DNA of 63,572 nt, the filler included, from Hausera hauseri (lineage: Eukaryota), in NCBI GenBank assembly GCA_046269625.1. It is 12 parts of 12 records of this genome, joined end to end, with 100 filler letters (N's around TTAATTAATTAA, not from the genome) between each part and the next. Parts side by side here need not be neighbours in the genome. Positions count along the whole stretch, not along the records: positions 9,683 to 14,303 come from JBJURY010500575.1; 11 more parts are not named here. One strand, given 5' to 3'. Within the stretch, counting starts at the first letter, position 1, and each line of letters starts with the position of its first letter. Below the pieces are notes generated by a model that had not been told where the DNA came from, did no database searches, and saw only the letters and a program-made list of their open reading frames with translations. Positions 9,683 to 14,000 of this stretch are shown here, in pieces. The position numbers and the translations under genes were made by a program.

Positions 9683-10950
9683 CAAAACTAACATCAGCCA
9701 TAAATCATTGCATTGGAATTTCACTTGATGAATTATCAAAGGTTAACAATGATTCTAACAATAACGAATTGCTATTCTTTTAACGGAATTGCTGTTTGCT
9801 CGAAAATATTACTTGCAAATTGCTATTGATGAATACGAAAATTTGACATCAAACGAAGGAAACATTGTTATTTTCCAATATTCTGCTGATTATAACGAAT
9901 CATTGACATTATCGACGAGAAATTCTTCAAAATATGGATAATTTGTACATAACATCTTTAATTAATAATTCACCGGGAATCATTAAGAAAGAATTATTTC
10001 AACACAAAAATTCTACTGTCAGTCAGACAATAATTAAAATAGTGACGTCTTGTCCGGAATTTAACGTCGACGGTCAAACACACGCTGAAACCAATGCTGG
10101 ACTGTATGTCCTCAAAGTATCATCGTACGATTCATATTTGATTGGTCACGAGAACAAATTGATTCATTACGATTATGTTCACACGTGTCTATACAACAAT
10201 GAATGTTCGGTGTTAAGTCTGTATCCATTTGGAAATTTATTGAACATTTCAATTGAACAATTCTACATGCCGCAATATTATTACCGAACTTTGCCGGATT
10301 GTAAATCGGCCGAAAAATTAGACAGTAAGAATAATTTCTCATTCTTTATTAAAGGTGCCAAATTGGTAAAATTTTCTCCCAAATTTTATGTACGCGGTGC
10401 GTTATTCTGTGGAATTAGTTGTATGCTCGGTAAAAACGTTAAAACTGCTATCTTATCTGGAGAACATCCGGTTTGGAATTCGACATTAGCGTTTGACATC
10501 GAATATGACAATTTACCGAGAAATACTAGACTGTGCATTTCACTGGTTCAGAAAGGTGATTCACGACAAAGTAATGAAATCGTGTTAGGATGGGCAAACA
10601 TCAACGTTTTCGACTATTCCTGTTGTTTAATGCACGGATCGTTCGATTTGAATCTTTGTCAAACAACCGACAGCAAGTATTTCTCACAAGTATTTCGTCA
10701 CATTCATCCAACAATCTAACAACTGCCGTTTTATTTTTGGAATTATGAAAGTATCCAATTCGACTAATTCGGCTTTAGCAAAAATCCGACAAGTTGTGGC
10801 AAACGATTTCCTGTTGAATATCTGCAACGATGATTTGAATTTTCTTCGAACAAATATGGATCTATGTGGTTATGTTCCCGATAGTCTGCCGAAATAAGCC
10901 TGTTCGATTCGTTGGGCAAATCAATCGGAAGTCACGGCATTTTGGAATTC
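9683..10950 (+). pseudogene. Phosphoinositide 3-kinase catalytic subunit fragment (C2 domain and start of helical domain)
   Basis: FYVRGALFCG..PVWNSTLAFDIEYDNLPRNTRLCISL..LGWANINVFDY (PI3K C2); PDSLPK*ACSIRWANQSEV (helical domain); stops and frameshifts; cut at the GC-rich cap. Confidence 0.8.
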
Positions 10951-10951
10951 T

Positions 10952-11059
10952 TTTGAGGCGGAAGATCGGGCCCGACTAAATGCCAGACGCGGCCGCAACG
11001 GACGCCAGGCCATGCCCAACCAAATGGGCCAAAGGGCACCGGCCGCTGTGGAGACCACA
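10952..11059 (-). repeat. GC-rich terminal cap of the cargo element family, second copy
   Basis: Reverse complement TGTGGTCTCCACAGCGGCCGGTGCCCTTTGGCCC...CCGCCTC aligns with 7023-7130 at roughly 80% identity by eye. Confidence 0.9.
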
Positions 11060-14000
11060 GGAATAATGATAGGAATGAGCGGAATGACAGAAAGAGATAA
11101 CGGAAGACTGAAGCACGGTAACTGAGGGTGAATTGAAATTATGATAACTACAATTTCGGAAGAAACCAAGGTAATTAAAGAAATGATAACAATGGGAAAT
11201 TATATAATGACAATGGAAATAGAGATAACAGATATAATGGGAATAATCAACAAGGACCGTCGAATCAGAATACAAATAGAAATATGAGGAGATCAAAATC
11301 GCGTGTAAACGAAGATGGTTGAAAGAGAATCGGCCGGAATGGAAATTTAATTTGTTATACAGGCGGTATAAAAAGACACATAGCAAGGTCATATCCAAAT
11401 CCACGAAGTGTTTCGTTCACTGAACCTAATAAAGTGAGTATAATTAAAACTAATGAAAACTTAAAAATGATGAATGCGCACCGAGGCGACACCAACCTGG
11501 TTATGGAATTACAGGATTTGCGAAAACATGAAAATCCAGAGAGAAACTGGTAATCCACAAGTATTAAAGGCCAGAATCGCGTATGAAAGTAAATTGCGGT
11601 TAATGGAAATTTATCGCGGAGTGGCAGAACTGCAATAAGAGCATGGGTATTCCGTAACACCAAATTACTCTAACATGGCTCCAGAAAAGAGTATTCTGCT
11701 AATTACCAAAGAGATAAATCAAATAGAAGTTCAATAACTTCGTTAAACGTAGACTTAGACGCAAAGCCTGAACCGGTACTACTGATAAAATCGAAAACGA
11801 ATATACGGTACCGGTTGTACTCAAAATAAAGAAAAATAGAAGCAGAAGCTTGTCAATCGAAAAGAAACATATAGGCTACTCACGGTCACCGGCAAAGAAA
11901 GAAGTTCCAAAAAACGGAAGACTTAAACATCGTCGTAAGTGACGTTTCAAGTTTAAATACTCTACACATGGAAGAGCAGCCAATAGAAATATCGAATACT
12001 CGGAGAGTAACCGAAGAGCTGATAGATATGAAAAACGAAATTAATGAAATATGTCATTTACCGCTTATCGAAGACGAAAAGGAACAAAACGAAAATTTGG
12101 GTGGAAAAATATGGGAAATTAGAAAATCACTGAAACGTCCCGACGAATTAAAAAAGATTAGAAATGCTCCAATTCGTCCAGAAACACTGCGCCAAAATTT
12201 AGCGAAATTCCAACAAATAATCAAACAGGTGGATGCTTCCGGAAGAACAACAATTTGCTGAAAGAATTTACAAAAAGCAAAAAATGTATAACGAGAGGAA
12301 ACTAGAGGAAGAAAACTATTCGGACGAATCAGAAGAAACGTCTCAAGAACTGGTAGAAAAGTGGAAAAACAAATTGAACTCATGATGTTGAACGTCATTT
12401 TGGTTATCACGATCGAAAACGACGGAGGGAACCTATATTCTTGTACAGACGAAAATTTGTAAATATGAAAACGCGAAGAATGGGCTCAAATGATGACGAA
12501 CCTAAGAGAGGAGACGCGGTCTCCAAAATGAATAGATATAAAATGTTCTCAGTTATAAAACCGCCGCTACCCATATTTCCCCCAACGGAACCAGTATACG
12601 AAGACTGCGATAGACGGTCAATGAACACATATAAGTTAGAAATTTATTGGAAACCGTTTAGCTATGAACATCCTTACGAAAGAACAAAACAATACAGAGT
12701 GTTACGGAAAATATATCAATCTAGAGAAAACGCTGCACCTTATCGGCGACAGTCGGTTGACGACCACAAAGTGCTATATTCTCCAAGAATACCTCGTAAT
12801 ATAGAAACCAGATCAACAGTTTGATGAGACCGAAGGATGCAGACATTACGAAATACAGTAATGCATATTGTGAGGATATAAATGAGAACAGATGTTCTGA
12901 ATTTAAATCAGAAATATTTTTAAATTTAAATTAAGATTTTGATTTGGTATTAATTAAAAAAATAATTAATTAAAATTTTAATGTAATATCAAAAATCTGA
13001 TTTGAATTTGGAAAATTTGTTTCAAAATAAATAATTTGGATTATAATAAAAAATTTCTACTGGTGTTTACTTTTCAATGAGTAATCTCAAACGATCCAAT
13101 TCTGATTCAGCAGTCATATCAGAGGGCGGGTGTTTTCCAACCCTACCCCGGCTGGGCAATGACGTGAACGGCGTGGATGCGCACGCTGCTAACACATACA
13201 AATAACCGAGAGCTGCTAGTCAGCACTGATGAAGGAGGGGATGAAAATTGTGTTAGCAATAAACTATACCAGAACGGAGAATTAAGGCAACTAGCAGAAA
13301 ACATAGTCACCTCACCAGAGGTTGGACACAAATTATCTACGATTAAACAACCAAAGGTTGTATCGAATTGTTATGGGGCGGTAGCAGAAGGAAGATAATT
13401 CACCAAAATTAGTATGGAAGATTAGGAAGTTTATGCATTAGTCAGCACATGATCTGAAATGTCATTTATCAATTATAATTTGATACCTCAAACATTACGC
13501 AAACAATTATACCCACCCTTAATATCTGACCCCGGAAGCGTTAAAGCCTTTGGCCAAGCATCAAGACCAAAATTCAAATGGAATCCTAACGTTCACATAA
13601 TTGTCCAAATATTTCAACATGAATTCTCTAAAATGGATTATCTAACAGACTAGGTAGTATTAGGATGCGATGTATCAAAACATTTACCAAATATAGCAAT
13701 AGACTTGCACGCTACAAAGCTAATCGAGCTCGGATCAATAAAAGGAGCAAAACCTACTAAAGAAAGAACATTTGGAAAAGTATGGATTACAGTAGATGAA
13801 AATATTCCGCCCAGAACAGAGATGTTGATATACGCACAAATTCGTTAAGACGACGATCAACCAGTATACGTCGATCCACAAGAAAGAATAAATCCAAACA
13901 TTATACTCAATTACGTATTAACAAGAGTATCATCAGGTCGCGTACGGGTTAGAATAGCAAATAATGCTCCAACTTCCGTTAAACTCTATGCTAACACTAT

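What the first reader, a model, noticed from the sequence alone, without database searches (positions are those of the whole stretch)
9683..11064. Same GC-rich cap on another contig, now next to a PI3K fragment: one family with exchangeable cargo
Seen: 10952-11059 is a reverse-complement homologue of 7023-7130. Similarity stops abruptly after CCGCCTC, where C2 continues toward liprin-alpha (sense) and C3 into a PI3K C2/helical fragment (antisense). The outer end abuts Gypsy gag. Inference: a conserved terminus with variable host signalling-gene cargo, found both times inside other mobile elements. This could be an undescribed gene-capturing element family and a source of antisense or small RNAs against host genes.
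Basis: partly seen in the sequence, partly recalled or inferred. Interest (0 to 1): 0.78.

Follow-up and report, generated by a model that had tools for sequence, protein, structure and literature searches.

The report
One-ended gene-snatching repeat in a flatworm
A 110-base GC-rich sequence, likely present in thousands of copies in what is likely a planarian-type flatworm, sits directly against broken pieces of two different host genes; one such repeat-plus-gene unit inserted as a single block, so the family likely copies host gene fragments around the genome from one fixed end.

Summary
Observation confirmed: 11059-10951 and 7023-7132 are 79% identical over 110 columns (E 4e-21), the only two copies in the window. 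Contigs of one run (possibly the window's own source) show the cap is the sharp end of a very abundant family. Its summed depth is 13,000-49,000 against 4-8 for single contigs, with mixed flanks on both sides. In C2, cap plus liprin-alpha piece (7023-8654) is one insertion: a 5-bp duplication, empty sites seen, no conserved far end. In C3 the PI3K piece is broken, uninterrupted by introns, multi-copy up to the cap, and cut mid-domain, while the retrotransposon flank beyond the cap is single-copy: not the native locus. The C3 far end is off-contig. The TGTGG end and 5-bp duplication fit a Gypsy/Ginger-type integrase, but no known family passes all its membership tests. No mobilising enzyme, parent gene or RNA was found; antisense or small-RNA function is untested. 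Verdict: a real gene-carrying family, new variant of a known kind, mechanism open.

The parts
10951..11059 (-). Cap, C3 copy: ~110-bp GC-rich fixed end of the element, outer end TGTGG at 11059
   Evidence: 79% to C2 copy; loose ends pile up at 11059-11060, summed depth up to 49,180
11047..11059 (.). Terminal dyad TGTGG-N3-CCACA; arms identical in both copies, loop differs
   Evidence: a third loop variant among contigs loose at 11051
9685..10948 (+). Cargo: class I PI3K fragment (RBD, C2, start of helical domain), no intron, stops and frame breaks, cut mid-domain at the cap; runs off the contig to the left
   Evidence: summed depth 29-156 with variants 3-8% different
10944..10948 (+). Inner GGAAT: equals the outer 5 bases, but lies in PI3K codons
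   Evidence: chance 1.5-4.3%
11060..11064 (+). Outer GGAAT: candidate target duplication; partner expected left of the contig end
   Evidence: the motif recurs at 11072 and 11081
11060..14303 (+). Host site in C3: decayed Gypsy-type retrotransposon, Burro-like by kinship to C4
   Evidence: tblastn to C4 up to E 2e-90; depth 2.1 at 11111-11178; PMC6431247 section 7
7023..7132 (+). Cap, C2 copy
   Evidence: loose ends before 7023 (68 contigs) and behind 7132 (49 contigs), depth 13,000-15,000
7023..8654 (+). Complete cap-plus-cargo insertion, 1632 bp, no second cap
   Evidence: joint 7017 to 8655 with 5 shared letters and 51 empty-site contigs
7018..7022 (+). Left 5-bp target duplication TTAAT
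8655..8659 (+). Right 5-bp target duplication TTAAT
   Evidence: a contig spans 8431-8682 with no difference
7498..8241 (+). Cargo: liprin-alpha piece (SAM2 end and SAM3 shown; upstream linker likeness back to ~7190 is my recall, untested), two stops, SAM1 absent
   Evidence: depth 8-29 with variants; atlas gave no support for 7190-7507
8279..8654 (+). Cargo: unidentified gene-like piece with two GT-AG intron-like intervals (8304-8420, 8547-8611), cut at the element's far end
   Evidence: 1 stop in 64 codons against 6 and 8 in the other frames (first exon taken one base late); no Pfam, PDB or atlas match
5997..8899 (+). Host site in C2: Polinton/Maverick-type DNA polymerase B gene, interrupted by the insertion
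   Evidence: PF03175 E 7e-18; same frame on both sides; depth 154,000-192,000

Best explanation
The cap is the fixed end of an abundant non-coding mobile family that, in C2, inserted together with 1.5 kb of host-gene pieces and duplicated 5 target bases; it is likely moved by a Gypsy/Ginger-type integrase supplied from elsewhere, which would grip the TGTGG end and finish the far end at an unconserved place. Shown: fixed outer end, sharp inner edge, co-insertion with cargo and 5-bp duplication in C2, no conserved far end there, and a broken PI3K piece that is multi-copy up to the cap while the outer flank is not. Inferred: that the PI3K piece travels with the cap (no contig across that junction was visible); that cargo joins at the inner edge through a few shared bases, probably from spliced RNA by template switching in C3; that later rounds copy and delete within the cargo; and the enzyme's identity. 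About 0.7 that cap and cargo move as a unit, about 0.4 for this mechanism.
For: The end reads TGTGG, matching the TGTNR pattern of Gypsy LTRs and Ginger (PMC2836005 passages); duplications are 4-5 bp in Ginger2 and 3-6 bp in LTR elements (PMC10045372 passages). The C2 duplication is backed by 51 empty-site contigs and a joint with 5 shared letters. Far-end depth is 10.5 against 13,000-15,000 for the cap. PI3K depth is 29-156 right up to the cap and 2.1 just beyond it. A PI3K deletion variant (263 bp skipped) has depth 111. Both caps in the window, 2 of 2, have host coding DNA on the inner side. PI3K is collinear with the Dugesia protein over 1,264 bp with no intron. The two leucines that follow in both close relatives can be read one base out of frame at 10950-10955, overlapping the cap's edge, where C3 differs from most copies at 10954 (772 of 944 depth).
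Against: The C2 far end lacks the ACA an integrase normally needs, and only one complete unit was seen. The inner GGAAT in C3 and the mixed flanks behind 7132 (agreement 0.44) fit a stand-alone 110-bp repeat equally well. The leucine reading itself has about 3% chance. C2 cargo seems to keep two introns on the same strand as the intron-free liprin. Parent genes were not found, so intron loss is not shown. No autonomous partner was seen. All copy evidence comes from one run that may be the window's own source, and summed contig depth is not a copy number. A conserved far end under about 30 bp would be invisible.
Confidence: 0.4

Rival explanations
1. Pack-TIR: the cap is one of two inverted terminal repeats of a Ginger2/TDD-like DNA transposon that fills its interior with host DNA. 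C2 lost its right repeat, and C3's second repeat lies beyond the contig.
For: TGTNR end, 5-bp duplication and a 110-bp length inside the Ginger2 TIR range of 50-180 bp. Short, partly agreeing loose ends behind 7132 (median 24, agreement 0.44) could be interiors of subfamilies. Apparent introns in C2 cargo fit DNA capture. Multicopy Pack-TIRs are known in animals (PMC8277862 sections 8-9).
Against: The only complete unit has no second cap, and its far end is flush with the duplication. Pack-TIRs are about 2 per 10,000 TIR elements in 100 animal genomes, with no mention of Ginger. PI3K has no intron over 1,264 bp.
Confidence: 0.2
2. Target-primed retroposition, Penelope-like: read on the other strand, the cap is the 3' end of an RNA. 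Upstream host RNA is copied with it and ends wherever reverse transcription stops.
For: It gives one fixed and one variable end naturally. In this orientation PI3K is sense and intron-free, and the C2 cargo is antisense with introns kept. Penelope pLTRs in Adineta carry terminal palindromes, capture 0.9-1.5 kb host spacers and move intron-containing genes (PMC3846280 passages).
Against: Duplications there are 8-10 bp and pLTRs about 190-220 bp. No hammerhead core on either strand and no credible Rfam match. The inner edge is sharp. The TG end and the 5-bp duplication would be coincidences. Liprin is antisense in this orientation yet intron-free.
Confidence: 0.2
3. Independent short repeat (SINE-like or solo terminal repeat): the cap usually inserts alone with a 5-bp duplication. 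In C3 it has its own GGAAT pair, and the PI3K copies were multiplied by something else; C2 is a rare read-through.
For: GGAAT frames a 111-bp unit in C3 (chance 1.5-4.3%). Both edges have mixed flanks. There is an A-box-like motif in both copies and A-rich loose ends behind 7132. In C2, 7133-7140 is a 7-of-8 inverted match to the outer end.
Against: The cap would have to land exactly on a PI3K/retrotransposon junction, or a deletion would have to stop exactly at its end. PI3K does not resume beyond the cap. C2 has no duplication beside the cap. There is no good B box and no tRNA. Other copies differ at 7139 (106 of 111 depth), and C3 lacks the inverted match.
Confidence: 0.2

Closest known systems
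Pack-TIRs of animals / Pack-MULEs (PMC8277862; abstract, sections 8-9, passages)
   Same: Non-coding terminal repeat plus captured gene pieces, microhomology at junctions, multicopy spread with new duplications
   Different: Those have two inverted termini, mostly hAT or Tc1/mariner, and are rare; here the one complete unit has a single terminus and a 5-bp duplication
Ginger2/TDD DNA transposons (PMC2836005, PMC10045372; passages)
   Same: TGTNR end, 4-5 bp duplication, terminal repeat length
   Different: No second TIR and no transposase seen; a terminal dyad; host-gene cargo
LTR-mediated retrocopies (PMC5131818; abstract and passages)
   Same: Partial, intron-free, sometimes multi-gene cargo joined by microhomology and re-amplified
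   Different: Those are flanked by LTR-element sequence on both sides; here there is no second LTR, primer site or co-amplified element body
Penelope pLTR-mediated capture in Adineta vaga (PMC3846280; passages)
   Same: Short terminal unit with palindrome next to unrelated host DNA; introns kept; one gene with a single pLTR
   Different: 8-10 bp duplications, longer pLTRs; no hammerhead here
Helitron read-through capture (PMC4778049; passages)
   Same: One fixed end and new variable far ends that take host DNA along
   Different: Helitrons start TC, end CTRR, insert at AT and make no duplication

Membership tests
Ginger2/TDD | TGTNR terminus | tested here: met
   TGTGG in both copies; pattern
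Ginger2/TDD | 4-5 bp target duplication | tested here: met
   5 bp in C2 with empty sites; one case only
Ginger2/TDD and Pack-TIR | Inverted repeat at both ends | tested here: not met
   No second cap in 7023-8654; far-end depth 10.5; C3 far end is off-contig
Ginger2/TDD | Integrase-like transposase in an autonomous partner | not testable with these tools
   No genome held
LTR element / TRIM / LTR-mediated retrocopy | Direct repeats TG...CA at both ends with primer site and purine tract | tested here: not met
   No direct copy in C2; no CA-TGG behind the inner edge of C2; mixed flanks at both edges
LTR-mediated retrocopy | Intron loss relative to the parent gene | tested here: inconclusive
   PI3K uninterrupted over 1,264 bp; parent not found
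Helitron | 5'-TC, 3'-CTRR, AT target, no duplication | tested here: not met
   TG end, flanks T and C, 5-bp duplication; definition
Penelope-like pLTR / retrozyme | Hammerhead ribozyme in the terminal unit | tested here: not met
   No exact CTGANGA on either strand; the one Rfam row at E up to 5 lies outside the caps and below its cut-off
Penelope-like pLTR | Terminal palindrome and capture of host DNA | tested here: met
   13-bp dyad; cargo; feature
tRNA-derived SINE | A and B boxes, tRNA homology, 3' tail | tested here: inconclusive
   A-box-like in both; no properly placed B box shared by both (box patterns recalled); ARAGORN 0 genes; A-rich loose ends

The most novel reading that the evidence does not exclude
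A new class of gene-capturing element: a single 110-bp integrase-type end, present in thousands of copies, that routinely picks up spliced and unspliced host-gene pieces, inserts them with 5-bp duplications without any second terminus, and re-amplifies them. This would be Pack-MULE-scale gene shuffling in an animal by a one-ended route that fits neither LTR, TIR, Helitron nor Penelope rules.
Probability: 0.25. Interest if true: 0.82.

Novelty: new variant of a known kind. Interest (0 to 1): 0.58.

Why it matters
[quoted passage not shown] Here both caps in 63 kb touch host coding DNA, and the family likely has thousands of copies. If that ratio holds genome-wide, this lineage shuffles gene fragments on a plant-like scale, by a route with one defined end. 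It would also inflate gene counts and confuse RNAi design and assembly in planarian-type genomes, and multi-copy gene pieces inside repeats are testable sources of piRNAs against the parent genes (untested). If the cap proves to be a plain short repeat, it is only a new lineage-specific repeat.

Tried and rejected
No whole genome is held, so cargo could not be catalogued. One run holds the stretch and no RNA holder was listed; this says nothing on expression. Cap motif scans found 0 loci in viral contigs, 0 in metagenomes with the 26-letter pattern and 0 in prokaryote genomes. The 21-letter pattern gave 41 loci, all 41 chance: 18-37% identity beyond the motif. The cap does not fold better than shuffles (z -0.87 to -1.09), and two sequences are too few for covariation. 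Word-index protein searches gave nothing for PI3K among longer proteins or for the liprin SAM piece among short ones. The window's Hsp70 is not in the collection. I considered 8150-8572 as a decayed reverse transcriptase: no Pfam, PDB or atlas support. The C5 GC island as a third cap: missed by the HMM; 125 and 337 of 1000 shuffles reach the local scores, 89 and 225 of 2000 the end-to-end scores; kept as a lead only. Earlier scan notes: nothing. Literature: 10 searches showed no report of such a family in flatworms. Repbase, Dfam and subscription papers were not searchable, and no supplements were read, so an existing repeat-library entry is not excluded. PMC4558846 (cestode TRIM) was seen as a search listing only.

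Full report
Setting. The window is 12 short contigs joined by spacers. The source is likely a triclad-type flatworm. Hsp70 from C1 groups with Dugesia and cestodes (97/89 support for a set of 6 of 32 rows; I chose 31 of the 120 listed hits for the tree). The best relative of the PI3K piece among 55 hits is a Dugesia japonica PI3K-like protein at 49%. C4 carries a Gypsy element with a mononegavirus-like fusion glycoprotein ahead of protease and RT, the layout described for planarian Burro elements (PMC6431247 section 7). No genome is held. The only outside data are the contigs of one run, X1, which holds 0.59 of the sampled words and may be the window's own source.

The observation. 7023-7132 and 11059-10951 are 79% identical over 110 columns (E about 4e-21). 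They are the only copies in the window and are GC 0.64-0.65 against 0.35 behind them. Both start with the dyad TGTGG-N3-CCACA, arms identical and loops different. Behind the C2 cap lies liprin-alpha (E 8.6e-41, two stops, SAM1 missing). Behind the C3 cap lies class I PI3K on the opposite strand to the cap, collinear with Dugesia residues 114-549 from 9685 to 10948, with stops and frame breaks, no intron, and cut inside the helical domain. Outside the C3 cap is a decayed relative of the C4 element; the stretch touching the cap has no Pfam match.

The cap is the end of a very abundant family. Of 171 loose-end rows, 6 were shown: 152, 56 and 53 contigs leave at 11059, 11060 and 11051 with low agreement (0.37-0.49), meaning many unrelated flanks. 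On C2 (6,127 laid) cap depth is 13,000-15,000. Of 230 rows, 6 were shown: 68 contigs leave before 7023 (0.38) and 49 behind 7132 (0.44, A-rich, median 24 letters). Dividing by single-contig depth suggests roughly 1,600-12,000 copies; the tool warns that summed depth is not a copy number, so only the order of magnitude is meant.

C2 is the one complete unit. The insertion is 7023-8654 (1,632 bp) in a Polinton-type polymerase gene, with TTAAT on both sides. Fifty-one contigs leave at 7022 into uninterrupted polymerase sequence (agreement 0.85), and one joint skips 1,637 bases with 5 shared letters. So cap and cargo arrived together. The far end has depth 10.5 and no second cap; a terminus under about 30 bp would be missed. 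Cargo depth falls from 111-176 at 7139-7143 to 5.7 at 7255-7506, then runs 8-29 over liprin and beyond, with variants up to 8% different; two contigs lack the stop at 7744-7746. The last 375 bp look like a third gene with two GT-AG intervals, unidentified.

C3, the finding itself. PI3K depth is 29-156 up to the cap. The five longest listed pieces differ by 3-8% and have depths of 12-38 each, and a 263-bp deletion variant has depth 111. The flank just beyond the cap has 2.1. The multiplied unit therefore includes PI3K and excludes the retrotransposon, and this copy is not the native gene. No visible row bridges the PI3K-cap junction, so co-movement is inferred. GGAAT is common in this PI3K piece (8 in 1,266 bp), giving 1.5-4.3% by chance. 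A stand-alone cap would also have to sit exactly on a PI3K/retrotransposon junction. The next two residues in both close relatives are leucines; they can be read one base out of frame at 10950-10955, past the GGAAT (chance about 3%), just where C3 departs from most copies (10954). The two coincidences roughly cancel, and the depth pattern tips the balance to a cap-plus-PI3K unit.

Mechanism. A TGTNR end and a 5-bp duplication are the marks of Gypsy and Ginger integrases. One fixed and one free end is the mark of Helitron read-through or target-primed retroposition. The element has both. My best reading (0.4) is an integrase-type enzyme acting in trans on the single cap, with cargo joined at the inner edge by microhomology, probably from spliced RNA in C3 as in LTR-mediated retrocopies, and an improvised far end. 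Rivals: Pack-TIR with a lost terminus (0.2), Penelope-like retroposition with the cap as RNA 3' end (0.2), and an independent short repeat (0.2). The first three readings share the claim that cap and cargo move together, which I put at about 0.7 after allowing for the single complete unit. No hammerhead, tRNA, credible Rfam match or unusual folding was found.

Membership and novelty. It works like a Pack-TIR or a read-through capturing element, but fails a defining test for each family: no second TIR (Ginger, Pack-TIR), no paired LTRs or primer site, a duplication and wrong ends for Helitron, no hammerhead for Penelope terminal units. These failures rest on one complete copy. Ten literature searches found no flatworm report; repeat libraries could not be searched. 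The cap was not found in the public viral, metagenome or prokaryote collections. I rate it a new variant of a known kind, interest 0.58, with a 0.25 chance of a categorically new one-ended capture system. Antisense or small-RNA activity is untested.

Papers seen: PMC8277862 abstract, sections 8 and 9, passages; PMC6431247 section 7 and passages; PMC5131818 abstract and passages; PMC2836005, PMC10045372, PMC4778049, PMC3846280 passages only; no supplements.

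Noticed in passing
window 22430-24210 (C5): Same layout as C3: a broken, intron-free RRP12-like piece (E 0.0064) and an FG-rich stretch, then a ~95-bp GC island (about 24110-24201) that reads TG at its outer end on the minus strand, then a gag-like frame (DUF7041, E 0.047). It aligns end to end with the cap but not significantly (89 and 225 of 2000 shuffles). Possibly a sister family.
   Followed up: partly
window 14404-22329 (C4) and 11060-14303 (C3): Burro-like Gypsy element with a Monjiviricetes-type fusion glycoprotein (E 5e-35) between a long coiled ORF and protease-RT; the C3 relative lacks about 4.6 kb including that gene.
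   Followed up: partly
window 5997-8899, 27484-29761, 39535-41935: Three Polinton-type polymerase B remnants in 63 kb; the C2 family has summed depth 154,000-192,000, more than the cap, an unusually large expansion.
   Followed up: no
window 42410-46779 and 54444-58931: Two 31-bp satellites with different consensus units (141 and 145 copies).
   Followed up: no
window 46880-53169 (C10): Higher-GC contig with an L1/Tx1-type endonuclease frame that looks unlike the rest; possibly from food, host or another organism.
   Followed up: no
window 7133-7160: Directly behind the C2 cap lie a 7-of-8 inverted match to the outer end and a stretch complementary to the cap's inner part; depth 111-176 at 7139-7143 points to a subfamily extension shared by tens of copies.
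   Followed up: partly
window 1-77 and 5087-5163 (C1): Identical 77-bp ends, likely an assembly overlap; the contig holds an intact intron-free Hsp70 and a transposase-like remnant (my reading, no Pfam support).
   Followed up: no
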